Source of the DNA: an uncultured Anaerolineales bacterium
GTDB taxonomy: Bacteria; Chloroflexota; Anaerolineae; B4-G1
Reading direction: 5' to 3'
Length of the DNA stretch: 64,000 nucleotides
Assembly (NCBI GenBank): GCA_964474655.1
Contig: CAYYTU010000002.1
Coordinates: forward strand, 64,095-128,094
Below the pieces are notes generated by a model. The model ran no database searches. It saw nothing but the letters and a program-made list of their open reading frames with translations, and was not told the origin of the DNA. Below are positions 15,513 to 30,087 of the stretch, in pieces. How positions within the stretch are numbered: position 1 is the first letter of the stretch; each line of letters opens with the position of its first letter. The translations under genes were made by a program, and so were the position numbers.

Positions 15513-15513
15513 C

Positions 15514-16173
15514 CTAGCCTACTAACGCAAAAGCCAGGGCGTAAGCTGCCCAGATCCAAAGTCCCTGGACACCCCCCAGAATCGGCGCCAGCCACCAGGG
15601 ACGCTCTTCCAATCGCCACACCAGGAGCACTGCCCCACCGGCGATCAAGAACTCTCCCATGATGATGTAAAGCGGAACCGGCCCCCACATTTGCGTCTGC
15701 TCATAAAACCACCACACGGCCCCCTTGGCCCACCATTCGTAGAGCGGAATCGTGGCAGCCCCCAACAATCCAGTCAGCACCACCGCCCATCCCAGATCGA
15801 TTTTTTGCGACAGTCGCCAGCCGATGTAGGCCGTCTGAACCAGGACAACGCCCCAGGCGAAGGGCATATAAAGCGGCGAGCGAACGACAAAAGGCCCGCC
15901 CGGGTGAAAGACCAGCGTCTCGGTCACATCCACCAGCCAGCGATCGGCCAACAGCTCCGTCCAGCCTGCCACCATAGCCAGAAGAAGGAGACGTCCCGTC
16001 AGGCGGTTCCGACTCCAGAGAAAATAGCCGATGAAGATAAGCCAGTTGAGGGCAGTGATGATACTAGCGCCGATCCAGCCCGGAGCCAGCAGCGAGCAGA
16101 GCCCATTCCAGAGAAGCGTCAGCGCCAAAGTGCCACCGATAATCCAGTCACGCGATCGCGGCATCGTCTCCAT
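15514..16173 (-). CDS. Hypothetical integral membrane protein (about 6 TM helices), embedded between two GAF genes.
   Basis: ORF 15514..16224. The preferred start METMPRS at 16173 has GGGGAGG 7 nt upstream. This start still overlaps the upstream gene end (16148) by 26 nt. The stop is 1 nt from the next gene start. Rich in Trp, Leu and Gly. No family recognised. Confidence 0.5.
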   Translation of the reverse strand: METMPRSRDWIIGGTLALTLLWNGLCSLLAPGWIGASIITALNWLIFIGYFLWSRNRLTGRLLLLAMVAGWTELLADRWLVDVTETLVFHPGGPFVVRSPLYMPFAWGVVLVQTAYIGWRLSQKIDLGWAVVLTGLLGAATIPLYEWWAKGAVWWFYEQTQMWGPVPLYIIMGEFLIAGGAVLLVWRLEERPWWLAPILGGVQGLWIWAAYALAFALVG

Positions 16174-19060
16174 TCCCGTCCTCCCCGTTATCGCTTTCAT
16201 CCGCTGCGCCATTGATCTCATCATCAGCGGTACGCCCCTCCTCGTCTACCGGGGCGCCATTCCCATCCGGACCGGTCATCTCGACGCTCACCATATCCGC
16301 CTGGAGCGCGCGGCCCAGCTCTCTGACCGTCGTCTCTAGAATCGCGTCCGGGTCCATTGAGCCCCTCAGCTGACCGGCGATTTCACCTACCAGCTGCTCA
16401 CGAGCAGCACGGCGCTGCGTCTCTCGATATAACCGTGCTCCTTCTAACGTGACCCCCAGCTGGTCCGCCACCGCTTCCAGCGTCCTTATTTCCTCCGGCG
16501 TCCAGGGATCGGCATCGCTGGGCTTATACGTATCCAGGACTCCCACCACCTGACCGCGCACTTTGATCGGCACAGAGAGAGGATGATTATTGCCAATGCG
16601 GTCCAACATCTCTCCGTGGGCCGGTTTGCCCGTGCGCACGGCCTCCTCCATAGCCGGTCGCCAGATATCGCCGACCTTGACCACGCCTCTTTCGTCGCTA
16701 TGATAACCCAGGTTCGGCTGAATCCGCAGCAGCTCGGCCCAGGATTCACGGCTCAACTCTCCGTAGGCCCGCTGGGCTGCCTCCAGCGCATCCTGCGACT
16801 CGGCGAAGAGGTACGCATTGTCCAGCGCCACCGCCACATAGTCGGCCATCGTTTGTAAGACGGTGACGACGTCTTCGTCAAAGGCGGACGGCTGGACGCT
16901 CTGGACAGTGATCGCGCCCAGGATTCGACCCCGGGAGCGGAGCGGCAGCGCCACCTCCGAGCGCGTTGACGGGAGCAACGGATTGTCAAAGTGGACCGGT
17001 TCGTCACCGACATCCAACGCGATGCGCGCCTCGCCCCGATCCACACATTGGCCGATCATCGATTCACCGCCTACTTTAAGCTTATGGCCCTGTTCCAGCA
17101 TCTGCTGTCCGGCCTCGCCGGTACCAGCCCGCAGCCGAGCCCAACCACCGGTCTCGTCCATCAGGAAAAGCCCGACATAGTAAAACCCGAACCGGCTGCG
17201 AATCAGATCGACCACGCTCTGGTTCAGCTCATCAACGTCCAGAATGGAGGAGGCGGCCCGTCCCACCTCAGCGGAAGCCTCCAGGTAGGCCGACCGGACC
17301 TCAAGATCGCGCGTGCGCTCGGCGACGCGTTGCTCCAGGTTGCCGATCAGCTCCCGCAGTCGCGCCGTCATACTATTAAACGCTTTCGCCAGAGCGCCGA
17401 TTTCATCCTGACGCTCCACACTCGCAGTGCGCTCCAGGTCGCCGGCGGCGATCTGCGAAGCCGTCTCCGAAAGGGTCTGGAGCGGTCGCCCGATGCTTTG
17501 TGCGATGAGCAACGAGACTAAGCCCGCAGCCGCAGCTGCTATCACAGCGATCCCAGCATTGGTCCAAACTGTCCTGTTGATGCCGCTCAGAGCCTCCGAT
17601 TGATCTTGCTCGGCGATCAAAGCCACCTGGAGACGAGGCAGCCAGTGGTAGACACCCACCACCGGCACCTCACGATAATCCAGGTAAAGTCCGGACCCGT
17701 CCATTTTGGTGGTTAGAGCAGTCTCGACCGCCTCCGTACGCACATAAACTCTCTCTTCATCTCCAAAACGCGAGGCCGTGATCATAGCGTTGTTGGCCCC
17801 GACGAGATAAGTCTCTCCCGTCTCGCCCAGGCCGGCTCGCTCCGACATAATCTTATCCAGCGTCTCCATACTGGCATAGCCAGCCAACACGCCCAGTAAA
17901 CGCCCATACTCGCCAAGCACTGGACGGGAAACCACCACCAACGTACGATCTAAAGAGGGGGAGTAAAATGGCGGCGTGATGTAGGATAACCGCCTGCCGC
18001 GCTGAAAAAATTCTTCCTGACGCCGGATTTGGCCCTCTTGGCTAGGCATGGTGGAGAGGATGATCTCACCATCGGGGTCCACTAAAAAAACCGTCTCAAG
18101 CAGCTGCTCCTGTTGCAATATCCGCTGGAAGTCGTTTAGGAGAATCTCGTACGATTCTTGATAGTCCGCCGAATCCTCCTGCGCATCGATCAATCTGCTC
18201 ACAACCTCGACCATCTCCGAATCCAGATACCGCAGATCCGAGGATTGCCGGACCGAGCTGGCCAAAACATCCTCAATGCTGGTCAGCCAGCGCTCAATCT
18301 CGGCCTCCTTCAGCGTGGCTACCGACTCCAGCTGATTGACGACCTGCTGGCGACCGCTGCGGGTGCCGGTGATCACCGACCCGGTGGCGACGGCCCCGGC
18401 CGTCAGCGTCACGGTGACGATGGAGGTAACAAGCATTCGATTACGGATACTCCGGAGGAGGAAGTCGCGTATAAGCCGCCACAGGACGAATCCGCCCACT
18501 AGCGCGGTGAGGGAGAAGACGAGATAGGGCACCAATCTCAATTGGGTCACATCGTAACGCGGCAGCAAATCAACCCGATTGACCAACCAAAACCAACCGC
18601 CCAGGAGCGCCAAAGCAGCGCCCCAGACCCACCACCTCTTCCACAAGATAGCGCGGGCCAGAACCAGAATCAAGAAGATGCCGCTCAGCAACAGATAGAG
18701 CGTAACTTCCTCCAACACCAGCTCGCCGCCGCCATAAGAGATCACGACGGAAAATAACAAGACGGCGCCGGCACGATCAGGGTTACCCCGTCGCAGCTGC
18801 CAGGCTGCCACAGCAACCCCGAGCAGGCTCAACGCAGCTAAGCCCATCACTACCAACATCTGCCAGGCCTGCGTCTGGAGGACAAACAGCGTATAAAAGA
18901 CGAAAACGACCAGATCGGTAAAGAGGCCAACGTGCAAAATACGCCTGATCCGTTCGCGCCGCTGCTCCTCCAGGATAGCGACATCGACCTGCGTCTCAAC
19001 GAGGCTGGCGTTACGAGCAGCGCTCGCTGGTTGCCGTTCAGCCTTCCTATCGTCAGTCAT
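16148..19060 (-). CDS. Membrane sensor-like protein: polytopic N-terminus, periplasmic Cache-like domain, HAMP, GAF, half-GAF and conserved tail. Its sensor module is homologous to that of the histidine kinase at 25329..27788, but it lacks the kinase core.
   Basis: 970-aa ORF. Cache-like block VVGVYHWLPRLQVALIAEQDQSEA matches VIGVYQWMPALELALVAEQKQETA in the kinase. HAMP motif IAAGDLERTASV. GAF signature LPLRSRGRILGAITVQS. Tail is QRRAAREQLVGEIAGQLRGSMDPDAILETTVRELGRALQADMVSVEM followed by a long acidic tail. Confidence 0.78.
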   Translation of the reverse strand: MTDDRKAERQPASAARNASLVETQVDVAILEEQRRERIRRILHVGLFTDLVVFVFYTLFVLQTQAWQMLVVMGLAALSLLGVAVAAWQLRRGNPDRAGAVLLFSVVISYGGGELVLEEVTLYLLLSGIFLILVLARAILWKRWWVWGAALALLGGWFWLVNRVDLLPRYDVTQLRLVPYLVFSLTALVGGFVLWRLIRDFLLRSIRNRMLVTSIVTVTLTAGAVATGSVITGTRSGRQQVVNQLESVATLKEAEIERWLTSIEDVLASSVRQSSDLRYLDSEMVEVVSRLIDAQEDSADYQESYEILLNDFQRILQQEQLLETVFLVDPDGEIILSTMPSQEGQIRRQEEFFQRGRRLSYITPPFYSPSLDRTLVVVSRPVLGEYGRLLGVLAGYASMETLDKIMSERAGLGETGETYLVGANNAMITASRFGDEERVYVRTEAVETALTTKMDGSGLYLDYREVPVVGVYHWLPRLQVALIAEQDQSEALSGINRTVWTNAGIAVIAAAAAGLVSLLIAQSIGRPLQTLSETASQIAAGDLERTASVERQDEIGALAKAFNSMTARLRELIGNLEQRVAERTRDLEVRSAYLEASAEVGRAASSILDVDELNQSVVDLIRSRFGFYYVGLFLMDETGGWARLRAGTGEAGQQMLEQGHKLKVGGESMIGQCVDRGEARIALDVGDEPVHFDNPLLPSTRSEVALPLRSRGRILGAITVQSVQPSAFDEDVVTVLQTMADYVAVALDNAYLFAESQDALEAAQRAYGELSRESWAELLRIQPNLGYHSDERGVVKVGDIWRPAMEEAVRTGKPAHGEMLDRIGNNHPLSVPIKVRGQVVGVLDTYKPSDADPWTPEEIRTLEAVADQLGVTLEGARLYRETQRRAAREQLVGEIAGQLRGSMDPDAILETTVRELGRALQADMVSVEMTGPDGNGAPVDEEGRTADDEINGAADESDNGEDGNGDDAAIA

Positions 19061-19096
19061 AATGGCTCCGTTCCAAACAACCTCCCAAACCCTCGC

Positions 19097-20104
19097 TTAC
19101 TCGGCCGCTCTCACAAACTCGTTGGTGAAAACGTTCAATACGCTCATCGGCGATTCAATCACGTCCTGACTCAGCAGTATATCCTGGGTGACGCGCCACG
19201 TGACCTCGTCCATCCAACCGAGAGGAGCATCTCCCGTATCAATAAAAGGGATCTGAGCCCTCATCGTTGCAGTCTGAATCTCGAGATCCAGCGAATCATC
19301 GTACGCCAGCGTCATATCCGCCGTCTCCTCCGGGTTAGAGATGGCATACTCATACCCCCGGAGCGTGGCCCGTACGACCCGCTCCACCAGCTCCGGCTCC
19401 TCCGCGATCAACGCATTGTTGGTGAAGATAGGGTTGACGTAGACGGGGACGCCGTAATCGCTGTAGAAGATAAGAGAGAGATCGTGACCATCCAGGCGAG
19501 CCTGCACGGGCTCATTGGTGGAAAAGAAACTACTCGCCGCATCCAGGCGACCGGAGGTCAACTCATTGGCGCCGTGATAATCCTCAATCGTCAGGAGCGT
19601 CATATCCTCGGGACTCATCCCCACATTATTCAACATCGCCAGGAATTGCATATCCCAGGTCGTATCCAGCTGCTCGGAGATGACGCCGACCTTCTTGCCT
19701 TCCAGATCCTGAGGGGCCTCAATGCCACTCTCCGCCAGGCTCATCACCACCAATGGGTTATGCCGGAAGATGCTGGCGATGCAGACCACGTCCTTACCTT
19801 CATCCCGCAGGCGAATGATAGTATCACCAGAGGCCAGGCCGAACTGGGCCTCGCCAGACAGCACCTCCTCGGCCACATTCACCTCCGGCCCACCTGGCAC
19901 CAGGGTTACGTCCAGGTTTTCATCGGCATAATAACCGAGCTGATCAGCGACGTAAAAGCCCGCAAACTCCACCGTCGGGAACCAGCTGAGCTGAACGGTG
20001 ACCTCTTCTGGCTCGGGGGTGGGTTTAGAGCCACCACAAGCCGTGAACGTCCCAACCAGAAGGGTCATCAACAAAATTCCAACCGACCAACGTCTCAGTT
20101 TCAT
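19097..20104 (-). CDS. NMT1/THI5-like (SsuA/TauA-type) ABC substrate-binding lipoprotein. Orphan: no permease or ATPase gene nearby.
   Basis: ORF 19097..20164. The true start is probably ATG at 20104 (MKLRRWSVGILLMTLLVGTFTACGG, with a lipobox Cys). The 20-codon tool extension is encoded by repeat copy B. GGGGGAAG lies 8 nt upstream of 20104. Confidence 0.72.
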   Translation of the reverse strand: MKLRRWSVGILLMTLLVGTFTACGGSKPTPEPEEVTVQLSWFPTVEFAGFYVADQLGYYADENLDVTLVPGGPEVNVAEEVLSGEAQFGLASGDTIIRLRDEGKDVVCIASIFRHNPLVVMSLAESGIEAPQDLEGKKVGVISEQLDTTWDMQFLAMLNNVGMSPEDMTLLTIEDYHGANELTSGRLDAASSFFSTNEPVQARLDGHDLSLIFYSDYGVPVYVNPIFTNNALIAEEPELVERVVRATLRGYEYAISNPEETADMTLAYDDSLDLEIQTATMRAQIPFIDTGDAPLGWMDEVTWRVTQDILLSQDVIESPMSVLNVFTNEFVRAAE

Positions 20105-20285
20105 AACACACTTCCCCCAGCCCGGCAATGGGCAAACGAAGCAATTCCAAAGCCTCGTAGACACATCAGATTACCTACAAACGCGTTTACCGAGCGTATC
20201 AACCCCAGCACCATTTACCTTCTTCGCACCTGAGCACACTCTGTGGCATTGAAGGCACTTTCGCAGACGATTCGCTTCGAAAACC
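20105..20285 (-). repeat. Copy B of a ~150-180-bp dispersed leader repeat (parts 1 and 2), in minus orientation immediately upstream of the NMT1-like solute-binding gene.
   Basis: The reverse complement aligns at about 85% identity with 29071..29225. Shared blocks are CGAATCGTCTGCGAA, GCCACAGAGTGTGCTCAG, GAT(A/G)CGCTCGGTAAACGCG and GGTGCTTTGGAA(C/T)TG(C/T)TTCG. Confidence 0.7.
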
Positions 20286-20316
20286 ATCGATTACGCCAGA
20301 ACTTCACGGGCCTGCT

Positions 20317-22068
20317 CTATCCACTCCCATCACTACCGTCCACATCTTCGCCGTCTCCGCGAGGCGCCAGCCGAACGGTGACCGCGGGAAGGTCCATCGC
20401 CTCACGCACCTCCTCGGCGGCGGACTTGAGGACGCTCTCCATATCCAAGGATTCACGCAGTCGAGAGGCAATGTCGCCGACCAGGCGCTCGCGCGCCGCG
20501 CGACGCTGCGATTCGTCCATCAAGCGCAAGTTCTCAATCGTCTGCGCTACTTGCTCAGCCACGGCCTCCGCCATCTCGATCTCCTCCGCCACCCACAGGC
20601 GATGAGGACGCGTATCCCTCAAGGCCATAGTGCCGATCACCTGCCCACGCAGCTTCAAAGGCACGACAAGAGCAGAACACTGAGGTTTGTCCATCGGACT
20701 CTCCGAACGGGCCTCCCCCACAACCACCACGTCGCCCCGTTGTACGACCTGCTCTCGGGCCTGGCGGAGCTCATCGCCAATCTCCAACTCCACGTCCGGC
20801 CGCGTATAATCAACCCGGCCCACCTCCCGATTGGTCAGGAAGCCCTGCCACTCTTCTGCCAAGTAACGCCGATGGATGGCCTCCACCTCTTCCAGCGCCG
20901 CCTCGGTGCGACTAAACAGCTGCGCGTTATCGATGGCAATCGCGACCTGGTCAGCCATCATCTGGAGGGTCTCAACGTCGTCCTCGCTAAAAGCAGCCTC
21001 CTGAGTACTCTGGACGCTCAAAGCGCCCAAAACTTCCCCCCGTGAGCGCAAGGGTAACGCAATTTCCGAATGCGTATGCTCCAGAAGCGGCGGAGCAAAC
21101 CGCGCTGTCTCGTCAACTTTCGGCGTCACTTGAGCCTCACGACGGATGATGGCTTGTCCCACTGTGGTCGTCCCGTCCAGCTGCAATTGATAGTTCATCT
21201 CCTGTAATTCCCGACCGGCCCGGCCGGTCGCCGCCGCTAACGTGACCCCGCTCTGCGCCTCGTCGAGCAAGAAGCAGCCCACGTAATAAACGCCCATCGA
21301 GCTAAACCCCGATTGAACGCGATGAACTACCTCGTCCAACAGACGGTCCGGATCCAGGATGGAAGAGCTGGCCTGAGTGACGCTGAGCGACGAGGCCAGC
21401 TGCTTTGCGCGATGGTGTAACTCGCGCGTGGTCTTTTCCAGATCTGCGGTACGATCTTGAAGGTCCTCCTTCACCTCACGAGCATCGGCCAGCGCTTGCC
21501 CCCACCACCGACTCAGCGTCTGTGTGCTTAGCAACAACGCCAGCACCACGATCAAAAAATCGCCCCCCTCGCCAACCCAGTAACCCAACGTGGTCGAATC
21601 GGAGACATGTAAAGGGACTTTCCCCCAGGCAACAAACAGGGTATTGGTCGCATAAATCACAAGACTTAACCCGGTAAAAGCTGTCCCCAATCTCCGTCCC
21701 AACAAGATGAAGGTCACTGTGGGAAGCAAAACTAACCAGAGCCGCCCGCTGCCCGCCATACCACTGCGGGTGAGGATGAAGGCGCTCATCGTGTAGCCTG
21801 CTATCAAGAACATCAAAGCCCGTGTGCGGTAGTATAAACTCCGCCAGACTAAGGCCACTAAGGCAAGAGCCCAGGCTACAAAGAAAGGCACCATAAAGGC
21901 CAGACGCGCCGATCTTTCAAGACCACCCAGAAAACCAGATCCGATGAAGAAGAGATAAGCCAGCAGAGCGCCCCCGCCGACAACGCCGAGCCACAACAAG
22001 CTGTTCAAGAGCTCGACCCGTCGCTGCTGAACGTCACTCCCCCACTGAGAAATACCTTGTGTGCTCAT
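20317..22068 (-). CDS. Polytopic membrane protein (about 8 TM helices) with GAF, half-GAF and conserved tail. No output domain.
   Basis: 583-aa ORF. GAF signature ALPLRSRGEVLGALSVQSTQEAAFSEDD. Tail is QRRAARERLVGDIASRLRESLDMESVLKSAAEEVREAMDLPAVTVRL followed by GDGEDVDGSDGSG. Confidence 0.75.
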   Translation of the reverse strand: MSTQGISQWGSDVQQRRVELLNSLLWLGVVGGGALLAYLFFIGSGFLGGLERSARLAFMVPFFVAWALALVALVWRSLYYRTRALMFLIAGYTMSAFILTRSGMAGSGRLWLVLLPTVTFILLGRRLGTAFTGLSLVIYATNTLFVAWGKVPLHVSDSTTLGYWVGEGGDFLIVVLALLLSTQTLSRWWGQALADAREVKEDLQDRTADLEKTTRELHHRAKQLASSLSVTQASSSILDPDRLLDEVVHRVQSGFSSMGVYYVGCFLLDEAQSGVTLAAATGRAGRELQEMNYQLQLDGTTTVGQAIIRREAQVTPKVDETARFAPPLLEHTHSEIALPLRSRGEVLGALSVQSTQEAAFSEDDVETLQMMADQVAIAIDNAQLFSRTEAALEEVEAIHRRYLAEEWQGFLTNREVGRVDYTRPDVELEIGDELRQAREQVVQRGDVVVVGEARSESPMDKPQCSALVVPLKLRGQVIGTMALRDTRPHRLWVAEEIEMAEAVAEQVAQTIENLRLMDESQRRAARERLVGDIASRLRESLDMESVLKSAAEEVREAMDLPAVTVRLAPRGDGEDVDGSDGSG

Positions 22069-22158: not shown

Positions 22159-24159
22159 CTAACGCAACCTCGCATCCACCCTCTCGCTCCTGCCTGCTGC
22201 CGAACCGCCATCACCCTCCAGGTTCAATTCAATCGAGACCTGGGGCACCTTCATCACCCGCGAAAGCTCCTCGGCGGTCGTGTGGAGCGTCCGTTCTATC
22301 GTAGCGGAGCGGCGGATACGATCCACCACCCGCCGCGTCTGCTGCTCCCTTTCCGCACGCCGCCGGGCGTCCTCCAACAGACGCGCCCGTTCCAAAGCCA
22401 CCGAGGCTTGATCGCTGAGAGCCTCATATAGGCGTAACGCTGATTCGGAGAAGGGGCCAGCGGCGTCTCGCAGGACGACCACTTGCCCAATCACGCGCCC
22501 GTGGGTACGGAGCGGGATGTTGACCAGGGCTCGGACGCCGGTGGTCTCGAAGACCTGCTTGGCGCTGTTGGGCAGCCGATCATCATCCTGCACGTCGGAG
22601 ACGGCCCAGAAGCTGCTGACCAGATCAAGGGGAAAAGGGCTTTCTGAGATCGGGAGCCGCACGCCGGGCTGGAACTGGGGCGTGCGATCTCGCCGCCAGA
22701 CGTCCAGATAGAGCAAGGCCTCCGGCGATCCATCCGGTGAAAGCTCGAAAGCGACCACCAGACAGCCATCGGCCCCCGTATCAACCACGGAGGAGACCAC
22801 GGCGTCGGCCACCTCGGAGGGCGTCGTCGCCGTGGTCAGTCGACGGCTGACCTTGTACATCGGCCGCGTCGCCTCCAGCAAGGAGATGCGGCTGGAGATG
22901 CGCCGGGCGTTCTGGATGGCGACTGCGATCTGGTCCGCCAGGCTCTGCAACACCTGGACGTCGGTGGCGTCGAAGGCCGCCACCTGATCGGACTGCACGT
23001 CGAGAACGCCCAACATCTGATCTCCGACGCTCAACGGAAGGGTCACCTCAGAGGCAACATCGGGCAAGAGGGGATGGGGATGATGGATCGCATCCTCCTC
23101 CACGTTGCGCGCGATCCGCACTCGATGGTGGAGGGCGGTCCATCCCACCATACTCGTCTCTGCTACCGGCAAACGGAGCCCTTCGGTCATCAGCTTGGGA
23201 CCGCTCGCCCCGGCGGCGGCCTTCAAATCGACCTGTTCCCCACTCTCATCCAGCAGGAAAATGCTCGCGAAGTAGACATCCAGACGCTCGCATATCAAAT
23301 CCACCGTCTTATGCACCAGATGGTCGGCGTCAAAGATCGACGTAATCGCTTGCCCTACCTCAAAGCTGGCCTCCATCTGCGTCACACGACGACGCAGCAT
23401 ATGCGTGCGCTCCTCCAACCGGGCTTGATGGGCTTCCAAATCCTGCGCCAGCTTCTGGCTGCGGGCCAGCGCGTTCGCCATCCGGGGCACCAGGTAATTC
23501 TGCAACAGCAACAACAACGCGCCCACCAGAAGGAAAAGCAGACTGGTCATCACCCAGGAGGCAGCGTCGCCGGTCTCGCCCGGCGGCGGGACGACCATCC
23601 CCGTTGAATAGGCCCACCCAAATCCCACCAGCGTAAGAAGGGAAAGTCCAAAAGCGATCAGTCCACTTCGATGGTCAAAGAAGAAGGGCGCCACCAGGGA
23701 AAATGCCAGTAAAAAAAGAACACCCCCGCCGCTGCGACCAGCAGTGGATAAGGCCACAACGCCCAACCCATAGAGCACCGTCAACAACGTCCAGACTCGA
23801 ACGTCATAGGAAACGCGAGACCAGAACGTAATCACAGCCAGCCCCGCATATGTGAGCACGTAAACTGGAATCAGCCACAGCCGATCGGAGCGGTAAGCGT
23901 TATAGGTCCCAATGACTACGACCAGACCACTGATCAACAGTAAAATCCGCAGCGCACCGTAGATCAGCCACTCCCGCCACTCTTTCATATCCCCTTCGAC
24001 GCGCTTTCCCATCGCGGATAATAACCCGGCATCCAGGCCCGGCGAAGGCTCCTCTACCTCTGACGGCGGTCCTTCCAGATCCTCCTCGCTTTCTGGCTCC
24101 AGAGGGGGGAAATCGGAGAAAAGCGCCTCCATTGAGTTTTTCAGTCGATCGTCATCCAT
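22159..24159 (-). CDS. Polytopic membrane protein with an acidic N-terminal peptide (MDDDRLKNSMEALFSDFPPLEPE), GAF, GAF-like module and conserved tail. No output domain.
   Basis: 666-aa ORF with GGGAG 11 nt upstream of the ATG. GAF signature LPLSVGDQMLGVLDVQSDQVAAFDATD. Tail is ARRRAEREQQTRRVVDRIRRSATIERTLHTTAEELSRVMKVPQVSIEL. Confidence 0.75.
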   Translation of the reverse strand: MDDDRLKNSMEALFSDFPPLEPESEEDLEGPPSEVEEPSPGLDAGLLSAMGKRVEGDMKEWREWLIYGALRILLLISGLVVVIGTYNAYRSDRLWLIPVYVLTYAGLAVITFWSRVSYDVRVWTLLTVLYGLGVVALSTAGRSGGGVLFLLAFSLVAPFFFDHRSGLIAFGLSLLTLVGFGWAYSTGMVVPPPGETGDAASWVMTSLLFLLVGALLLLLQNYLVPRMANALARSQKLAQDLEAHQARLEERTHMLRRRVTQMEASFEVGQAITSIFDADHLVHKTVDLICERLDVYFASIFLLDESGEQVDLKAAAGASGPKLMTEGLRLPVAETSMVGWTALHHRVRIARNVEEDAIHHPHPLLPDVASEVTLPLSVGDQMLGVLDVQSDQVAAFDATDVQVLQSLADQIAVAIQNARRISSRISLLEATRPMYKVSRRLTTATTPSEVADAVVSSVVDTGADGCLVVAFELSPDGSPEALLYLDVWRRDRTPQFQPGVRLPISESPFPLDLVSSFWAVSDVQDDDRLPNSAKQVFETTGVRALVNIPLRTHGRVIGQVVVLRDAAGPFSESALRLYEALSDQASVALERARLLEDARRRAEREQQTRRVVDRIRRSATIERTLHTTAEELSRVMKVPQVSIELNLEGDGGSAAGRSERVDARLR

Positions 24160-24196: not shown

Positions 24197-24475
24197 CTAT
24201 CGGCGCAATTTGCCGTTTCCCGAATCGGATTGATCGTCATCCCCTCCCCGGGAAGCGAGGGTCTGCCAACCCTGGCGCCACACGCCGCCACTCTCGGCCG
24301 ATTTCTCAGCAGTATGTTCGCGCCCTTTTTCCTCGTCATCGCCGCCAGAGGCACCATGCTCAACCGATCCATCCTCACCATCCCGTGACGAAGCTTCACG
24401 CTCTACCTCCGGCTCCGGAGGGGCGAAGTCAGAAAATAATTGCTCAAGCGAGCGTTTCAGATCGTCCTTAGTCAT
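24197..24475 (-). CDS. Small acidic protein (92 aa). Its N-terminal 23 aa duplicate the N-terminal peptide of the downstream GAF protein.
   Basis: The ATG at 24475 overlaps the parA stop (ATGA). MTKDDLKRSLEQLFSDFAPPEPE aligns with MDDDRLKNSMEALFSDFPPLEPE at 22159..24159. The rest is low-complexity Asp/Glu/Gly/Ser. Confidence 0.4.
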   Translation of the reverse strand: MTKDDLKRSLEQLFSDFAPPEPEVEREASSRDGEDGSVEHGASGGDDEEKGREHTAEKSAESGGVWRQGWQTLASRGGDDDQSDSGNGKLRR

Positions 24476-25332
24476 AATTCAGCCTCGTTAATGCGTCGCC
24501 GGGCGGCCTCGGAAGCTTGCGAAGGGACCTCGGACATCGCAACGTCCCCACCCTCCTCGTCGGCAGGAGACGCGAATTTAGCGATCAATTCGCTGGCGAC
24601 GGCCCGGTACTGCCCCGCGGACCGCGTCTTGGGGGCATACTCGGTAACCGGCAGCCCATAGGCCGGTCCCTCTCGCAGACGGGTGTCCACCTGTATCATC
24701 GTCTCGAACATCGCATCCCCAAAGTGCTTACGGAGGTATTCCAGCACCATCGGGTGAACCTTATTCCGCATATCGTACATCGTCACCAACAGCCGATAGG
24801 CCAGCTGAGGGTTCGTCTTCCGGCGCACCAGCCGCGTCATATCAAGCATCTGGCGGAGCGACTGGATCGCGTAATACTCACACTGGACCGGGATGATGAG
24901 CAGATCGGCCGCCGTCAGCGCATTGACCATCAGGGTACCGAAAGTGGGCGGCGAATCCACCACCACAAAATTGTAAAGCTGATGTCGCGTCTGCGCCAGA
25001 CTTTTCCTCAGCCGATATTCGTAGCCGGGACGCTCATAAAGCACCTTATCCAACACCACTAGCTCCTGATTGGCCGGCGCCAAGTCCAACCCATAGACCT
25101 CGGTCTCGCGCGTGATGGAGGCCAAAGAGTCTTGCCCCACCACCGCATCAGCCACTGTGCCATGTATCGATTCGGGGTCAAAGCCCAAGGAGCCAGTCAA
25201 GTGAGCCTGGGGATCGAGATCCACCATCGTGACCAGCTGCTCTTGCTCCGCCAATGCTCCTCCCAGCGACAGACAAGTGGTCGTTTTAGCCACGCCGCCT
25301 TTGCTGTTTGCAACGGCGATCACGGTCGTCAT
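24472..25332 (-). CDS. ParA/MinD-family P-loop ATPase.
   Basis: Deviant Walker A motif VANSKGGVAKTT. Walker B motif is VVVDSPP. The length of 286 aa is typical. The start overlaps the kinase gene stop by 4 nt. Confidence 0.85.
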   Translation of the reverse strand: MTTVIAVANSKGGVAKTTTCLSLGGALAEQEQLVTMVDLDPQAHLTGSLGFDPESIHGTVADAVVGQDSLASITRETEVYGLDLAPANQELVVLDKVLYERPGYEYRLRKSLAQTRHQLYNFVVVDSPPTFGTLMVNALTAADLLIIPVQCEYYAIQSLRQMLDMTRLVRRKTNPQLAYRLLVTMYDMRNKVHPMVLEYLRKHFGDAMFETMIQVDTRLREGPAYGLPVTEYAPKTRSAGQYRAVASELIAKFASPADEEGGDVAMSEVPSQASEAARRRINEAEL

Positions 25333-27788
25333 CGTTCCTCCTCGCCTACACGGGCACCATCCAAGGCCTCACCTCGCTCAGAACGAGTTTCCACCGGCAA
25401 ACTAAACGTAAAAGTCGATCCTACTCCAACCTCGCTCTCAACCCAGATTTTGCCCCCGTGCATAGCCACAAACTCCTTGCTCAAGGCCAGCCCCAACCCA
25501 GCGCCATCAGGGCGCCGACCATCCCCCAGCTGCCCCTGCTCAAACCGCTCAAAGATGCGCTCCTGATCCTCCAGCGGGATGCCACGCCCGGTATCGCTGA
25601 CGCTGACCAATACCCGTCCATCCTCTGACCAGGCCCGCACGGTGATACTCCCCTGATCGGTGAAGTTGGCCGCGTTCGTCAGCAACTTCAACAAGACCTG
25701 GCGGATCCGCGTTACATCCGCCTGCACGATGGGCAGGTCGGGCTCTATCTCCTGGAGCAGATCGATCTCCTTATCGCGCACCAGAGCGCTGGCGGTCGAC
25801 ATCACGCTGTTGATCATCTCAGATAGATCGAGGTCCTGAAAGTGGAGCTCCATCAGCCCCGCTTCAATCTGGGAGATGTCCAACAAATCGTTGATCAAGC
25901 CCAGGAGGTGCTGGCTGTTGGCGTGGATGATCTTGACGTCCTTCCGCTGCTGATCGTTTAGATCGCCGTCCAGCCCTTTCAGCATCAGGCGAGAGAACCC
26001 GATGATGTTCGTCAGCGGCTCGCGCAACTCGTGGCTCATATGGCCCAGGAAGCGGGATCGGAAGCGTTCCGCCTCGCGCAGACGTCGGGCCGTCTCTTTC
26101 TCCTTCCGGTAGATGCGAGCGTTCTCCAAGGCGATGGTAATCTGATTGGCCACGTTGCGCAGGACAGAGATGGCATCCTCGTCCATCTCCTCCGACTCGG
26201 TGTCCAGGATGTCGAGCACGCCGACGGTCTCATCGCCCAGCTTGAGCGGCAGCGCCGCCTCCACCTGGATATAGGGAGAGCCGAACAAGCCATCGGCCCG
26301 ATCGGAGCCCCAGCGAACGATGCGCGGCTCACCCTTCAGCCCCGCCTCGCCCACTGCTGAACCCTCTCCAAGCGGGACCGGCGCCGCTTTGAGCTCTTTC
26401 ACCCTCTCCCCTCCGCCGGTTCCCTCGCGGAGAAAAGCCTGTTCCCCACTTTCATCCAGCAAGTAAACTCCCACGTAACAATAATCGAACCGATCGTGGA
26501 TCAAGCGCACCACCTCGTGCAAGAGTTTGCTCGGCTCCAGGATCGAGGTCGCCGCCTGGCTGACCTCGACCGTAGCGGCCAGTTGAATGGCGCGACGCTG
26601 AATCTGGTAGTTAGCCCGCTGCAACATCTCCGTACGCTGAGCCACCTTGGCCTCCAGATCGTCGTAGAGGCTTTTCAGATCCGCCGTCATCTTGTTAAAG
26701 ACGTAAGTCAGGATGCCAATTTCATCGCGCGAGGTGACGGGCACCTGCTGATCCAGCTCGCCCTCCGCCACGCTGAGCGCCGACTCCGTCAACCGCACGA
26801 CCGGACGCGTGATCTGCCGCGTCACCACCGCAGCGACGACGGCCGTCCCCAGGGCCACCAAGAGCGTGGCCCCGATGATGGCAGCAGCGACGTTGTCCGC
26901 CGGAGCAAAGGCGGTCTCCTGCTTCTGCTCGGCCACCAACGCCAGCTCCAACGCCGGCATCCATTGATAGACGCCAATGACCGGGTCGCCGGCGTAATCA
27001 TCATACAAGCCCGCCACCCGCTCGCCATCCAGCGCGGCCTCAATGCCCTCGCTGCTCACGACCTCCCCTTGCGGCAGCGCTATGCCATCCTCATCCACCA
27101 GATAGACCCGGCTATCTGATCCCAGCGCTTGGGCCGTACCTAGCTCCTGGGCCAGGTCATCCAGATCAAGCCACCCGACCAGGACGCCTTCGTCCACACC
27201 ATCTGGACCACCAATCTCCTTTGCGACCACAGCCCCTACCGACGCCTCCGGCTCCAGCGTGATCATCCGAAAGATGGTCGTCTCGTCAGGCGTCAACGCC
27301 GGGATAGACGTCTCAACCTCACCCTCCAGCGACGGGTCCGTGGCTACCAAGGTTCGCCCCTGGTCATCAAGGAGAGCCACGCACCGAAAGGCCGTATCTT
27401 GGTCTAGCAACGCGCTCAGGTGTTGGCGCAAGCTGTCGCGAGCGCGCGCTTCGTCGCCTTCTGAACCAGCCTCCGCGGGCGCGTTAGCTTCCAGCAGAGT
27501 CGAGGCTTGCTGCCGCACGCCCGGCACCGCTGCCAGAAGCGCCAGGTGCTCAAGATGGCCTTCGCCCCAACACTGGATCTGAGACTCAGTCAGCACGGCC
27601 ACAGAGGAAAGTTTGGCGATAACTTCACGGCGGAGGTCACGTCGTTCGCGTCGAGTGGCGTACCAACTGATCGCACTGAGAGGCACAATCGCCAGGAGCA
27701 AGAAGGCCGTCAGCAACGTCCGGCCCAGCCCCCCGCGCATCCCCGTGGTAGGTACGCGAGGCCCTTTTGTCGACTCCGGCGTTGCCAT
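25329..27788 (-). CDS. Sensor histidine kinase: 2 TM helices, periplasmic Cache-like domain, HAMP, GAF, HisKA and HATPase_c. It is the only kinase in the cluster.
   Basis: H-box is HMSHELREPLTNIIGF. ATPase motifs are DTGRGIP and GAGLGLALSKEFV. GAF signature is ALPLKLGDETVGVLDILDTE. The Cache block is shared with the gene at 16148..19060. Confidence 0.85.
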   Translation of the reverse strand: MATPESTKGPRVPTTGMRGGLGRTLLTAFLLLAIVPLSAISWYATRRERRDLRREVIAKLSSVAVLTESQIQCWGEGHLEHLALLAAVPGVRQQASTLLEANAPAEAGSEGDEARARDSLRQHLSALLDQDTAFRCVALLDDQGRTLVATDPSLEGEVETSIPALTPDETTIFRMITLEPEASVGAVVAKEIGGPDGVDEGVLVGWLDLDDLAQELGTAQALGSDSRVYLVDEDGIALPQGEVVSSEGIEAALDGERVAGLYDDYAGDPVIGVYQWMPALELALVAEQKQETAFAPADNVAAAIIGATLLVALGTAVVAAVVTRQITRPVVRLTESALSVAEGELDQQVPVTSRDEIGILTYVFNKMTADLKSLYDDLEAKVAQRTEMLQRANYQIQRRAIQLAATVEVSQAATSILEPSKLLHEVVRLIHDRFDYCYVGVYLLDESGEQAFLREGTGGGERVKELKAAPVPLGEGSAVGEAGLKGEPRIVRWGSDRADGLFGSPYIQVEAALPLKLGDETVGVLDILDTESEEMDEDAISVLRNVANQITIALENARIYRKEKETARRLREAERFRSRFLGHMSHELREPLTNIIGFSRLMLKGLDGDLNDQQRKDVKIIHANSQHLLGLINDLLDISQIEAGLMELHFQDLDLSEMINSVMSTASALVRDKEIDLLQEIEPDLPIVQADVTRIRQVLLKLLTNAANFTDQGSITVRAWSEDGRVLVSVSDTGRGIPLEDQERIFERFEQGQLGDGRRPDGAGLGLALSKEFVAMHGGKIWVESEVGVGSTFTFSLPVETRSERGEALDGARVGEEER

Positions 27789-27813: not shown

Positions 27814-28230
27814 CTAATCTAACGACCAGACAGATTCTCCTTGAAGAATGTCACGAACTTGATCGGGGAAACGATCGGGGTCGAGAGGTTTGCCGATGAA
27901 GCCGTCGAAGCCGGCCTCACGCGCACGCTCCATATTATCCATCGAAGCATCAGCCGTCACCGCGACGATAAGCGTATCCTCAAAGCGAGGATGGGAGCGT
28001 AATTCGCTCAATGCCTCGTAGCCATCCGCCTCCGGCAAGAAGATATCCATCAAGATCAAGTCAACTTTCGGAAGCGCGTCAGCAAACTCCAACACCTGCC
28101 ATCCGGAAGCTTTCCACTCACAATCCTTCACGCCCAAGTAGGCCAGCAGGCGCGTGATCAACACAAAATTCTGGAAGTTATCCTCGACGACGACAACCGT
28201 CGCATCCTCAGGTCGCACACTCATAATCAC
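27814..28230 (-). CDS. Single-domain response regulator (CheY-like receiver).
   Basis: Receiver motifs: VVVVEDN, LILMDIFLPEADG, and a conserved Lys in GFIGKP. The GTG start at 28230 overlaps the upstream regulator's stop. An alternative ATG is at 28224. Confidence 0.8.
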   Translation of the reverse strand: MIMSVRPEDATVVVVEDNFQNFVLITRLLAYLGVKDCEWKASGWQVLEFADALPKVDLILMDIFLPEADGYEALSELRSHPRFEDTLIVAVTADASMDNMERAREAGFDGFIGKPLDPDRFPDQVRDILQGESVWSLD

Positions 28231-28610
28231 CCACCGACCCGTTCCAGCGCCTCTTCAATCTGACGCGGAAGCCGATCGATGTCGATCGGCTTGGGGATGT
28301 AACCATCGCAACCGGCCTTTAACGTCTTCTCACGATCGCCTTTCATCACGTTGGCCGTAACGGCCAGGATGGGGACGCCCTCCAGCGCGGGCACCGCGCG
28401 AAAGCGCCCGGCCAGGTCATAACCGTCCACCTCCGGCAAGTTGATATCCAGCAGGATCAAATCGGGGTCCACCTGTGAAGCTTCCTCTAACCCAGAGCGC
28501 CCATCGACGGCCTCTAAGACAGTATATCCTTCCGCCTCCAACACCCGCCTCACTAACAACCGATTCTCCGGGTTGTCCTCCACATACAATATTCGAGCTT
28601 TATCGCTCAT
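28227..28610 (-). CDS. Single-domain response regulator (CheY-like receiver).
   Basis: Motifs are ILYVEDNPENR, LILLDINLPEVDG and GYIPKP. The preferred start MSDKARIL at 28610 has GGGAGAGG 6 nt upstream. The tool start at 28625 has no ribosome-binding site. Confidence 0.8.
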   Translation of the reverse strand: MSDKARILYVEDNPENRLLVRRVLEAEGYTVLEAVDGRSGLEEASQVDPDLILLDINLPEVDGYDLAGRFRAVPALEGVPILAVTANVMKGDREKTLKAGCDGYIPKPIDIDRLPRQIEEALERVGG

Positions 28611-28662
28611 CAACGCCTCTCCCATGCATCTGTTTCAGGCCGGCTTAAGGAATTCCAAAGCT

Positions 28663-29324: not shown

Positions 29325-30035
29325 GTGCAAAAGAGACGTTTGCTCTTAGCTGCTGCCGCGCTCATCATCGTGACGTTGGCCTGTGGATTACCTGCCGCGC
29401 CAACAGTCACCCCTGAGGAAAGAGCCGGGACGGGAGAACCGACGCCCACGTCGCAGGCGACACCAGACCAACCTACGCCCAGCGACACCCCCGCTCCCAC
29501 CGAGACGGCCACGCCCACCGAACCGGCGACCGAAGCGCCTACCCCAACGCCTGAGCCCACGTCGGTGCTTTCCTGTACTATCGACATTGCCCCCGAGCTT
29601 GCGCCGCGGCTCAACGCTCACCCCGCCAAACTGCGGGCGCTGGGTTGCCCCATCGACCCCGCCCAACAGACCTGGGCCGCCGAGCAGCGCTTCCAGCTCG
29701 GGCGTATGTTCTGGCAAGAAGATACGGGAGAGATCCATCTGGTCTACGACGACGAAACGTACCAGATAGAGCCAAACCAGTACCAGGAATCTTCCGCCCA
29801 ATACCCGTGCCCGGAGGAAGGTCCACCGCCGCCCAGCCTGGAGATGCCCAAACGCGGCTTCGGCTGGCACTGGTGTAACACACCCAACGTCCAGGAGAAG
29901 ATTGGCTGGGCGCTGGAAGAGGAGATCGGCTACGAAGCCGCCTGGCAAACGTTCGAGAACGGCCACGCGCTATCCAGCCACCTCAACCACGTCTTCATCT
30001 TCTACAACGACGGCACCTGGGATTACATTGAGTAA
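29325..30035 (+). CDS. Secreted lipoprotein with a Pro/Thr-rich linker and a C-terminal Cys-containing domain of unknown function.
   Basis: GTG start with GGAGG 6 nt upstream. Signal peptide and lipobox LLAAAALIIVTLAC. TPEPT-type low-complexity linker. Probable extended -10 TGGTACAAT at about 29252..29260. Confidence 0.65.
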   Translation: MQKRRLLLAAAALIIVTLACGLPAAPTVTPEERAGTGEPTPTSQATPDQPTPSDTPAPTETATPTEPATEAPTPTPEPTSVLSCTIDIAPELAPRLNAHPAKLRALGCPIDPAQQTWAAEQRFQLGRMFWQEDTGEIHLVYDDETYQIEPNQYQESSAQYPCPEEGPPPPSLEMPKRGFGWHWCNTPNVQEKIGWALEEEIGYEAAWQTFENGHALSSHLNHVFIFYNDGTWDYIE

Positions 30036-30087
30036 CGACGGTGAAGCCCAGGTCCCGACGGACAAGCCAGTGGGACATGCCGACCCT

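What the first reader, a model, noticed from the sequence alone, without database searches (positions are those of the whole stretch)
24197..25332. ParA/MinD ATPase inside the signalling operon, followed by a mini-ORF that duplicates the N-terminal peptide of the next GAF protein (possible ParA-interaction motif)
A canonical ParA (KGGVAKTT deviant Walker A) is translationally coupled between the kinase and the GAF genes. Directly after it, a 92-aa acidic ORF (ATGA overlap with parA) begins MTKDDLKRSLEQLFSDFAPPEPE. The following 666-aa GAF protein begins MDDDRLKNSMEALFSDFPPLEPE. ParA/MinD partners such as ParB, MinE and chemoreceptor-array positioning adaptors typically contact the ATPase through short N-terminal peptides. 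A duplicated conserved N-terminal peptide right next to parA suggests such a motif. It also suggests ParA-dependent spatial positioning of this sensor assembly. This is analogous to ParC/PpfA positioning of cytoplasmic chemoreceptor clusters, but here with GAF proteins.
Basis: inference. Interest (0 to 1): 0.6.

Follow-up and report, generated by a model that had tools for sequence, protein, structure and literature searches.

The report
ParA partner tag on sensor proteins
The short peptide shared by the mini-ORF and the next GAF sensor closely resembles the tag that ParB uses to dock on ParA, and it sits next to a special ParA in dozens of Anaerolineae genomes, so these bacteria probably use a chromosome-partition-type ATPase to handle sensor proteins.

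Summary
On the minus strand, a histidine kinase gene, parA, a 92-aa ORF and a 666-aa MASE11-GAF-GAF gene follow each other. Both junctions flanking parA are ATGA overlaps. The two downstream proteins start with the same about 23-residue peptide.

The mini-ORF is a real gene. At least 11 related small proteins (82-139 aa) occupy the same slot in related metagenome contigs. They conserve the N-terminal peptide and a C-terminal WRxGWxxLAS helix. Synonymous sites in the peptide codons are saturated while the amino acids are kept.

The peptide is general. In about 46 distinct Chloroflexota loci, the gene directly downstream of a ParA homolog (41-100% identity) begins with h-x-B-x-h-[DE]-x-L-F-x-[DE]-h. 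[quoted passage not shown] The tagged proteins vary: MASE11-GAF, HAMP-GAF, PAS-GAF kinases, LytR and CheW.

In these ParAs, the positions that form the ParB-binding pocket in M. xanthus ParA are systematically changed. That points to a separate, insulated ParA-partner pair.

Verdict: a new variant of the ParA/MinD partner-tag principle, with moderate to high interest.

The parts
24472..25332 (-). Soj-like ParA ATPase (286 aa), member of a sensor-linked Anaerolineae clade
   Evidence: Pfam AAA_31/CbiA/ParA. Closest solved structures are M. xanthus ParA 8RAY (E 2.5e-47), H. pylori Soj 6IUB and T. thermophilus Soj. K11, K16, D38, D40 and D126 are invariant in 40 homologs. ParB-pocket positions are altered.
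24197..24475 (-). Mini-ORF: 92-aa acidic, mostly disordered small protein, proposed tag-only ParA partner
   Evidence: ATGA overlap with parA. Homologs P0002, P0123-P0131 (82-139 aa) occupy the same slot. dN/dS is 0.19 against L083. AF2 predicts helices 3-13 and 63-76 with the rest at low confidence.
24407..24475 (-). N-terminal tag of the mini-protein (residues 1-23, MTKDDLKRSLEQLFSDFAPPEPE); L6, R8, L10, L13, F14 have ParB-motif spacing
   Evidence: Invariant columns in the family alignment. In the first 26 codons, 13.5 of 16.5 synonymous sites differ against 2.5 of 61.5 non-synonymous sites. Position table; ParB motif.
24251..24280 (-). Conserved C-terminal helix WRQGWQTLAS of the mini-protein (residues 66-75)
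   Evidence: W66, R67, G69, W70, L73, A74 and S75 are invariant in 9 family members and present in P0130 and P0131. AF2 helix 63-76. It corresponds to the start of MASE11 in the sensor (W61-R62-E63-W64).
22159..24159 (-). 666-aa MASE11-GAF-GAF membrane sensor, the tagged partner and proposed cargo
   Evidence: Pfam MASE11 61-224 plus two GAF domains. Six hydrophobic segments place the N-tail and the GAF domains on the same side of the membrane.
24091..24159 (-). N-terminal tag of the sensor (residues 1-23, MDDDRLKNSMEALFSDFPPLEPE)
   Evidence: A near-identical peptide (at most three conservative substitutions, e.g. R5K, K7R, P18S) is kept in the L083 and L177 orthologs.
25329..27788 (-). dCache-HAMP-GAF-HisKA-HATPase histidine kinase, ATGA-coupled to parA
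   Evidence: Pfam. The same gene precedes parA in L083-L090, L172, L174 and L178.
27814..28625 (-). Two single-domain response regulators at the head of the operon (27814-28230 and 28227-28625)
   Evidence: ORFs. Response_reg Pfam hits in the identical or orthologous loci.
16148..22068 (-). Rest of the conserved operon: second MASE-GAF-GAF protein (20317-22068), NMT1 binding protein (19097-20164), dCache-HAMP-GAF-GAF (16148-19060). None carries the tag.
   Evidence: Pfam; synteny; motif scan.

Best explanation
The window carries one module of a Chloroflexota (mostly Anaerolineae) family. In this family a Soj-derived ParA ATPase has exchanged ParB for sensor proteins.

The partner is recognised through a short N-terminal amphipathic tag, h-x-B-x-h-[DE]-x-L-F-x-[DE]-h, with the Phe at residues 12-19. 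[quoted passage not shown] By analogy with ParB, the tag should fold into a helix that docks at the edge of the ATP-bound ParA dimer and stimulates ATP hydrolysis. The pocket positions in this clade are re-tuned (Y81 to A/S/G, V116 to K/Q/R, E117 to hydrophobic, L152 to T/A/S, L192 to T/D/S). The pair is therefore probably insulated from the chromosomal ParABS system.

In this window two proteins carry the tag.
- One is the six-TM MASE11-GAF-GAF sensor, whose tag sits on a roughly 60-residue cytoplasmic tail.
- The other is a soluble 92-aa protein that arose by duplication of that tail. It consists of the tag, an acidic disordered linker, and the first amphipathic turns of MASE11 (WRxGWxxLAS).

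I propose that the ParA dimer, probably bound to the nucleoid, tethers and distributes the sensor complex. I further propose that the mini-protein is a second, diffusible partner. It would compete for the two tag sites per dimer and/or trigger ATP hydrolysis, setting the turnover of the ParA-sensor contact. It could also link ParA to another component through its C-terminal helix.

Shown here: gene order, conservation of the mini-protein, motif pattern and linkage, and pocket divergence. Inferred: binding, ATPase stimulation, nucleoid binding, positioning, and the role of the mini-protein.
For: (1) Linkage. In essentially all Chloroflexota loci whose ParA is 41-100% identical to the window's, the gene directly downstream begins with the motif. 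The start usually overlaps the parA stop by 3-55 nt. This gives 46 unique peptides.

(2) Specificity of the linkage. A loose regex hits 21 of 311 other long ORFs in the same loci. Of these, 18 are transmembrane-like chance matches and 3 are the tagged sensors that follow a mini-ORF.

(3) Pattern. Hydrophobic residues occur at -8 (89%), -4 (100%), -1 (100%) and 0 (Phe, 100%). Basic residues occur at -6 (46%) and -5 (61%). Acidic residues occur at -3 (80%). This matches M. xanthus ParB L11, R13, L15, L18, I19, which were shown experimentally to bind ParA (PMC12462528).

(4) Cargo independence. The same tag heads MASE11-GAF, HAMP-GAF, PAS-GAF-HK-RR, PAS-GAF-LytR, PD40 and CheW-domain proteins. 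It therefore behaves as a portable module.

(5) ParA is Soj-like with catalytic residues intact.

(6) Pocket positions are near-invariant in 85 ParB-partnered ParAs but systematically different in 49 sensor-partnered ones.

(7) The mini-ORF is a gene. At least 11 clusters exist with two conserved motifs and constant synteny. Overall dN/dS is 0.19, and the tag codons show saturated synonymous change with almost no amino-acid change.

(8) AF2 predicts an N-terminal helix (pLDDT about 85) and a helix at 63-76, with a disordered linker between them.

(9) Topology allows contact. Six hydrophobic segments put the sensor's tail in the cytoplasm.

(10) The mini-protein peptide and the sensor peptide are each conserved in their own form across lineages: RSLEQLF against NSMEALF.
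Against: - No physical evidence of binding exists.
- The central basic residue of the ParB motif is only partly conserved. The window's sensor has N8, and L177's mini-protein has E-H at the corresponding positions.
- The acidic residues that receive that basic residue in M. xanthus ParA are partly lost.
- Only 2 of the 4 basic DNA-patch residues of H. pylori Soj are retained (R218, K235). Nucleoid binding is therefore uncertain.
- Two lineages inside the clade (ParA 75% and 77% identical; L086, L176) lack the mini-ORF. It is therefore dispensable.
- I could not check whether the same genomes also carry a canonical parAB.
- All sequences come from uncultured organisms.
Confidence: 0.62

Rival explanations
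1. ParA works here as a regulatory switch rather than a positioning motor. ATP-dependent dimerisation would clamp the N-terminal tails of two sensors, or of a sensor and the mini-protein, and so control sensor oligomerisation or signalling. Alternatively, the sensors and the mini-protein could control ParA, and through it nucleoid organisation or division, in response to signals. The tag is still a ParA-binding peptide under this reading.
For: ParA is always embedded in two-component/GAF operons. The partners are polytopic membrane proteins, and a nucleoid-based transport mechanism is less obvious for such cargo. The DNA-binding patch is only half conserved. By established knowledge, ParA/MinD relatives such as Soj (acting on DnaA) and FlhG act as switches.
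Against: Nothing here distinguishes this reading from positioning. The best-studied signalling relatives, ParC/ParP and PpfA/TlpT, are positioning systems. CheW-tagged variants exist in the same clade.
Confidence: 0.25
2. The mini-ORF is a functionless remnant of a partial tandem duplication of the 5' end of the sensor gene. It stays open only by chance or because it relays translational coupling from parA.
For: Its architecture equals the sensor's N-terminal tail up to the start of TM1. The sequence just upstream of the sensor start resembles the parA 3' end (GAGGCTG...TTATG). The linker evolves fast, with dN 0.46. Two sister lineages lack it.
Against: At least 11 protein clusters keep it open, at ParA divergence down to 70%. 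The two terminal motifs are invariant while the linker length varies from 82 to 139 aa. The tag codons show 13.5 of 16.5 synonymous against 2.5 of 61.5 non-synonymous differences. The C-terminal WRxGWxxLAS has diverged from the sensor's version and is conserved in its own form. The 138-aa form carries an additional conserved basic tail.
Confidence: 0.06
3. The shared peptide is unrelated to ParA. It could be a membrane-insertion, oligomerisation or degradation signal of these sensors, or a by-product of the overlap between the sensor start and the parA 3' end.
For: In many loci the first 10-18 codons overlap parA in another frame, which constrains the sequence. No binding data exist.
Against: The motif is equally conserved where there is no overlap: +4 to +106 nt in L005, L086, L092, L057, L035 and the window's sensor. 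It occurs on soluble CheW proteins and on the soluble mini-protein as well as on membrane proteins. It is absent from the other MASE11/GAF proteins of the same operons. Its hydrophobic spacing matches a proven ParA-binding motif.
Confidence: 0.07

Closest known systems
Chromosomal ParABS (Soj-Spo0J): N-terminal ParA-binding peptide of ParB
   Same: The ATPase is Soj-like (8RAY, 6IUB, 1WCV). The partner is encoded immediately downstream. The motif lies in the first 20 residues of a disordered tail. The hydrophobic spacing is identical (-8, -4, -1, 0), with a nearby basic residue and an acidic residue at -3. Compare RGLDALL with RSLEQLF.
   Different: The partner is not a ParB. No HTH/CTPase domain was found (Pfam), and parS was not examined. 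Phe is invariant at position 0. Extra conserved positions appear at +2 and +3. The glycines of GxGRG are absent. The ParA pocket residues are replaced.
ParC-ParP (Vibrio) and PpfA-TlpT (Rhodobacter) chemoreceptor-array positioning
   Same: A ParA-like ATPase sits inside a signalling operon. The partner is a signalling protein that contacts the ATPase through its N-terminus (PMC5706961). Two loci of the same clade (L035, L057) even have a tagged CheW-domain partner, as ParP is.
   Different: The window has no chemotaxis genes. The cargo is a MASE11-GAF membrane sensor in a two-component operon. The ATPase scores best against chromosomal Soj structures; relatedness to ParC was not tested directly. 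Similarity of the tag to the ParP or TlpT N-termini was not tested.
McdA-McdB carboxysome positioning (small disordered adaptor downstream of the ATPase)
   Same: A small, largely disordered protein is encoded directly after a ParA-type ATPase. It has a conserved N-terminal interaction peptide and conserved tryptophans near the C-terminus. The McdB features are from my own knowledge of the literature. McdA appears among the distant PDB hits (6NOO).
   Different: There is no sequence relationship (no Pfam or NCBIfam hit) and no carboxysome genes. The mini-protein is a paralog of the cargo's own tail.
PomXYZ (Myxococcus): one ParA/MinD ATPase with two ATPase-activating partners
   Same: It sets a precedent for two different partner proteins acting on one ParA-like ATPase, one of them through a short N-terminal peptide (PMC13170346, listed; abstract only).
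   Different: The proteins are unrelated and the system positions the divisome. The parallel is conceptual only.

Membership tests
ParA/MinD (deviant Walker A) ATPase, Soj-type | Deviant Walker A KGGxxK[ST] with signature lysine, plus Walker A' and Walker B aspartates | tested here: met
   SKGGVAKTT. K11, K16, D38, D40 and D126 are invariant in 40 homologs.
ParA/MinD (deviant Walker A) ATPase, Soj-type | Full-length sequence similarity to solved Soj/ParA structures | tested here: met
   8RAY E 2.5e-47; 6IUB 2.3e-43; 1WCV 1.7e-39, over residues 1-254.
ParA/MinD (deviant Walker A) ATPase, Soj-type | Basic patch for non-specific DNA binding (H. pylori Soj K199, K227, K230, K247) | tested here: inconclusive
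   The equivalents are P194, V215, R218 and K235, so 2 of 4 are retained. Other basic residues lie nearby (R189, K191, R220, R237).
Chromosomal ParABS system | Partner is a ParB (HTH/CTPase, parS-binding) encoded downstream | tested here: not met
   The downstream genes are the 92-aa protein and a MASE11-GAF-GAF sensor. By contrast, 86 control loci with 34-44% identical ParAs (85 distinct sequences) do have a ParB-type GxGRGLxALL N-terminus downstream.
Chromosomal ParABS system | Conserved ParB-binding pocket of ParA (M. xanthus Y81, V116, E117, L150, L152, L155, L192) | tested here: not met
   The window has A61, K96, V97, F131, T133, V136 and T173. The differences are clade-wide.
ParB-type N-terminal ParA-binding motif | Four hydrophobic residues spaced i, i+4, i+7, i+8 around a central basic residue, within about the first 20 residues of a disordered tail | tested here: met
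   Mini-protein: L6, R8, L10, L13, F14. Sensor: L6, (K7, N8), M10, L13, F14. Statistics over 46 peptides; reference motif; AF2 helix 3-13 followed by disorder.
ParB-type N-terminal ParA-binding motif | Binds the ParA dimer and stimulates its ATPase | not testable with these tools
ParC/ParP or PpfA/TlpT chemotaxis-array positioning | Located in a chemotaxis gene cluster; partner is a CheW-like or MCP protein integrated in arrays | tested here: not met
   The operon has no che genes. Only the distant clade members L035 and L057 have a tagged CheW.
Mini-ORF small-protein family (defined here) | 82-139 aa; encoded between parA and a tagged MASE11-GAF gene; N-terminal tag plus C-terminal WRxGWxxLAS | tested here: met
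   for the sequences. for the context.

The most novel reading that the evidence does not exclude
Anaerolineae harbour a large, undescribed branch of the ParA/MinD family that has been repurposed from DNA to sensor proteins. At least two modules can occur in one genome. A re-tuned ParB-like 'luggage tag' and a matching re-tuned pocket would let nucleoid-bound ParA gradients space or partition different sensory complexes along these filamentous cells. Tag-only mini-proteins such as the one in this window would be dedicated soluble ATPase activators or competitors that tune the system. This would add a new cargo class, and a natural set of orthogonal tag-ATPase pairs, to the family.
Probability: 0.35. 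Interest if true: 0.8.

Novelty: new variant of a known kind. Interest (0 to 1): 0.64.

Why it matters
The ParA/MinD cargo classes tabulated in the one recent review I consulted (PMC11407121) are chromosomes, carboxysomes, the divisome, flagella, chemotaxis arrays and secretion machinery. Plasmid partition is also a well-known role of the family.

General two-component and GAF sensors are not on that list. My literature searches found no description of this Anaerolineae system.

If the tag binds ParA, the family offers three things:
- a new cargo class;
- dozens of natural tag and pocket variants that show how partner specificity is re-wired away from ParB;
- a tag-only small protein as a possible built-in regulator.

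The prediction is directly testable with peptides and purified ParA.

Tried and rejected
- **First genome scan.** Scanning genome contigs with the single ParA sequence found no relatives. Repeating with a 40-sequence alignment worked.
- **Metagenome scan.** The metagenome-contig scan returned mostly ordinary ParA-ParB loci because the patterns were generic. I used these loci as the ParB-partnered control set instead.
- **Complex prediction.** I tried AlphaFold on fused ParA-linker-peptide sequences with a paired alignment. No interface model exists as a result.
- **ORF caller.** My first ORF caller took the first start codon in each open frame. It therefore missed tagged genes whose frame opens inside parA (L008, L015, L019, L029, L030, L039, L043). 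Re-inspection fixed this.
- **H. pylori Soj numbering.** Mapping with a 13-residue tag offset gave wrong letters. An offset of one residue less reproduces K199, K227, K230 and K247.
- **Spurious hit.** P0132 from the representative search is a chance repeat match (GVYRNGWFYLASS) and not a relative.
- **Databases.** Pfam and NCBIfam give nothing for the mini-protein.
- **Rejected idea.** I considered that motif conservation comes from the overlap with parA. It is rejected because non-overlapping cases keep the motif.
Full report
**1. The observation**

The operon lies on the minus strand. Its gene order is:
- an HTH_17 gene;
- two response regulators (28227-28625 and 27814-28230);
- a dCache-HAMP-GAF-HisKA-HATPase kinase (25329-27788);
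- ParA (24472-25332);
- a 92-aa ORF (24197-24475);
- a 666-aa MASE11-GAF-GAF protein (22159-24159);
- a second MASE-GAF-GAF protein, an NMT1-type binding protein and a dCache-HAMP-GAF-GAF protein.

The kinase-ParA junction and the ParA-mini-ORF junction are both 4-nt ATGA overlaps. A GAGG lies 7 nt before the mini-ORF start. The sensor gene starts 37 nt after the mini-ORF stop.

BLASTP gives 21/46 identities with E = 7e-7. A six-frame motif scan of all 64 kb finds only these two copies.

**2. Is the mini-ORF a gene?**

The protein database holds the identical sequence and a 63% identical 90-aa homolog. A profile search added P0123-P0129 (134-139 aa). An exhaustive HMMER scan of 1.84 billion representatives added P0130 (93 aa) and P0131 (82 aa), and nothing unrelated of significance.

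Every context I fetched shows the same arrangement: RR-RR-kinase-ParA-(ATGA)-mini-ORF-MASE11-GAF-GAF-MASE11-GAF-GAF. In the 138-aa form, the mini-ORF stop also overlaps the sensor start.

The family alignment has two invariant blocks:
- the N-terminal peptide M-[ST]-x-D-x-L-x-x-S-L-[DE]-x-L-F-S-D-F-x-P-P-x-P-E;
- a C-terminal W-R-x-G-W-x-x-L-A-S.

An acidic linker of very variable length joins them. The long form adds a basic tail (SIGIRRRRL).

Comparing the window with L083, whole-gene dN/dS is 0.19. In the first 26 codons, 13.5 of 16.5 synonymous sites differ against 2.5 of 61.5 non-synonymous sites. That pattern is selection on the peptide, not on the DNA.

AlphaFold2 with this alignment predicts a helix at residues 3-13 (pLDDT about 85) and a helix at 63-76. 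The rest is below 50. The protein has no hydrophobic segment.

Lineages with ParA 75% and 77% identical (L086, L176) lack the mini-ORF. There the tagged sensor directly follows ParA.

**3. Origin of the mini-ORF**

The mini-protein equals the sensor's cytoplasmic tail: tag, acidic linker, then the first turns of MASE11. The Pfam MASE11 match in the sensor begins at W61 (WREWLIYG...). Other orthologs read TWRQRLIRG or IWREELIHG at that point.

The region upstream of the sensor start resembles the last codons of parA.

A partial tandem duplication of the parA 3' end plus the sensor 5' end is therefore the likely origin. The product has been retained, and its C-terminal helix has diverged into its own conserved form.

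**4. The peptide is a general mark of the gene downstream of this kind of ParA**

ParA homologs at 55-88% identity are abundant in Anaerolineae, Thermoflexales and Caldilineaceae MAGs.

In the Chloroflexota loci with 41-100% identical ParA, the next gene starts with the same kind of peptide. Its start usually overlaps the parA stop. Examples:
- MNDDELKRSLESLFSDV
- MESFKQSLEELFSDF
- MATNDLRKQLEGLFSDL
- MPKKPKIDKRLDKLFKEI
- MSKNEINNRINKLFSGI

Exceptions are few: L016, L020, L036 and L045. L012 has LL in place of LF.

Anchored on the invariant Phe, the 46 unique peptides show the following:

| Position | Residue class | Frequency |
|---|---|---|
| -8 | hydrophobic | 89% |
| -6 | basic | 46% |
| -5 | basic | 61% |
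| -4 | hydrophobic | 100% |
| -3 | acidic | 80% |
| -1 | hydrophobic (Leu in 44 of 46) | 100% |
| 0 | Phe | 100% |
| +2 | acidic | 65% |
| +3 | hydrophobic | 93% |

The Phe sits at residue 12-19 of the protein.

As a control, a deliberately loose regex hits 21 of 311 other ORFs of at least 250 aa in the same loci. Eighteen are transmembrane-like chance matches without the charge pattern. Three are the tagged sensors that follow a mini-ORF.

The tagged proteins are diverse:
- MASE11-GAF-GAF;
- HAMP-GAF;
- PAS-GAF-HisKA-HATPase-receiver hybrid kinases;
- PAS-GAF-LytR_cpsA_psr;
- a PD40-repeat protein;
- in L035 and L057, a CheW-domain protein.

Upstream of ParA there is usually a dCache-HAMP-GAF protein or a kinase. 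In L057 it is an MCP. One MAG has at least two such modules (L022 and L178).

**5. What the peptide resembles**

Control loci with ordinary ParA (34-44% identical) are followed by ParB, whose N-terminus reads ...KKRGLGRGLDALLGG....

[quoted passage not shown] L11, L15, L18 and I19 are each required for binding. A central R13, which is K in about half of ParBs, promotes ATPase activation. [quoted passage not shown]

The spacing -8/-6/-4/-1/0 found here is exactly L11/R13/L15/L18/I19. In the window's mini-protein the residues are L6, R8, L10, L13 and F14. In the sensor they are L6, N8 (with K7 adjacent), M10, L13 and F14. Even the acidic residue at -3 is shared: RGLDALL against RSLEQLF.

General knowledge of the family says that partners contact their ATPase through a charged, disordered N-terminus (PMC10241942 and PMC11407121).

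**6. The ATPase**

The closest solved structures are M. xanthus ParA (8RAY, E = 2.5e-47), H. pylori Soj and T. thermophilus Soj. The catalytic residues are intact.

I mapped the published pocket residues through the 8RAY alignment. The numbering was verified because all ten reference letters match. The mapping gives Y81 to A61, E82 to D62, D110 to E90, V116 to K96, E117 to V97, L150 to F131, L152 to T133, L155 to V136, L187 to L168 and L192 to T173.

I then compared 85 ParB-partnered ParAs with 49 sensor-partnered ParAs:

| M. xanthus position | ParB-partnered (n = 85) | Sensor-partnered (n = 49) |
|---|---|---|
| Y81 | Y in 77 | S/A/G |
| V116 | V/I/L in 83 | K/Q/R |
| E117 | E in 70 | F/V/L/I |
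| L150 | L in 83 | L/F |
| L152 | L/M/I in 80 | A/T/S |
| L192 | mostly L | T/D/S/G |

The site that binds the ParB peptide has thus been rebuilt across the whole clade. This is what one expects if a new peptide class (invariant Phe, acidic -3 and +2) co-evolved with it and became insulated from ParB. That reading is inference.

Of the four basic DNA-patch residues of H. pylori Soj, two are kept (R218, K235), with other basic residues nearby. There is no C-terminal amphipathic membrane helix of the MinD type; this is a direct reading of the sequence.

**7. Mechanism proposed**

The ATP-bound ParA dimer offers two tag sites.

The sensor has six hydrophobic segments, so its tail and its GAF domains are on the same side of the membrane, which must be the cytoplasm. 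It would be tethered through its 60-residue flexible tail.

The soluble mini-protein carries the same tag in a slightly different, separately conserved version. The mini-protein keeps the Arg at the ParB R13 position. The window's sensor has Asn there.

The mini-protein would act as a second partner in one of three ways: as an activator of hydrolysis, as a competitor, or as an adaptor through its amphipathic WRxGWxxLAS helix.

Whether the outcome is spatial positioning, as for ParC/ParP and PpfA/TlpT, or regulation of signalling cannot be decided here.

**8. Comparison with known systems and novelty**

The system works like the known ParA/MinD partner-peptide systems. It fails membership of ParABS because there is no ParB and the pocket residues are changed. 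It fails membership of ParC/ParP because there are no che genes in the window.

Literature searches found no description of ParA modules linked to GAF or two-component sensors in Chloroflexota, nor of the mini-protein. The 2024 review's cargo table does not list such cargo.

I therefore rate it a new variant of a known kind. Its limits are clear: all evidence is comparative, the organisms are uncultured, and no interaction model could be computed.

Noticed in passing
L070:4465-5712, L066:6725-8140, L075:6737-8089: In Thermoleophilia, Gaiellales and Solirubrobacterales MAGs, a ParA homolog is followed by an FtsZ gene whose start overlaps the parA stop (Pfam Tubulin plus FtsZ_C). The FtsZ has an N-terminal extension containing a ParB-like peptide (e.g. 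SMRDGPLAQLFKATE). This suggests direct ParA-FtsZ coupling.
   Followed up: partly
L057:3034-12662 and L035:2324-3217: Two members of the same ParA clade have a CheW-domain protein carrying the tag, which is ParP-like. In L057 the operon is MCP, ParA, tagged CheW, then a 1667-aa MASE11-PAS-GAFx5-kinase-receiver protein without the tag.
   Followed up: partly
L022 and L178 (contigs JAXHUO010000036 and JAXHUO010000012 of one MAG): One genome carries at least two ParA-sensor modules with different tagged partners, PAS-GAF-LytR_cpsA_psr and HAMP-GAF. The ParAs are 59% and 69% identical to the window's. The system is therefore paralogously expanded.
   Followed up: partly
window 13251-22068 (-): Several of the large GAF proteins in this operon (583, 970 and 753 aa) end with a similar C-terminal segment (...RRAAREQLVGEIA..LR.S.D.D.IL.TAV.EL...). 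This was seen by eye in the translations. Its meaning was not examined.
   Followed up: no
window 34621-35556 (+): A 311-aa ORF ends in about ten tandem hexapeptide repeats (PPEEVG/PPDEAG/PPDDAG). It is unrelated to the finding and was not studied.
   Followed up: no
window 29902-30936 (+) and L083, L089, L172: A GIY-YIG/NUDIX fusion gene is conserved next to, and divergent from, the sensor operon in several related contigs.
   Followed up: no
L004:6840-7032: In this locus (ParA 64.5% identical) the tagged MASE11-GAF gene (MSDDRLTGFIDDVFSGL...) starts 192 nt after parA. The spacer is open in frame with the sensor gene but shows no mini-ORF motif. It may be a decayed or never-formed mini-ORF.
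   Followed up: no
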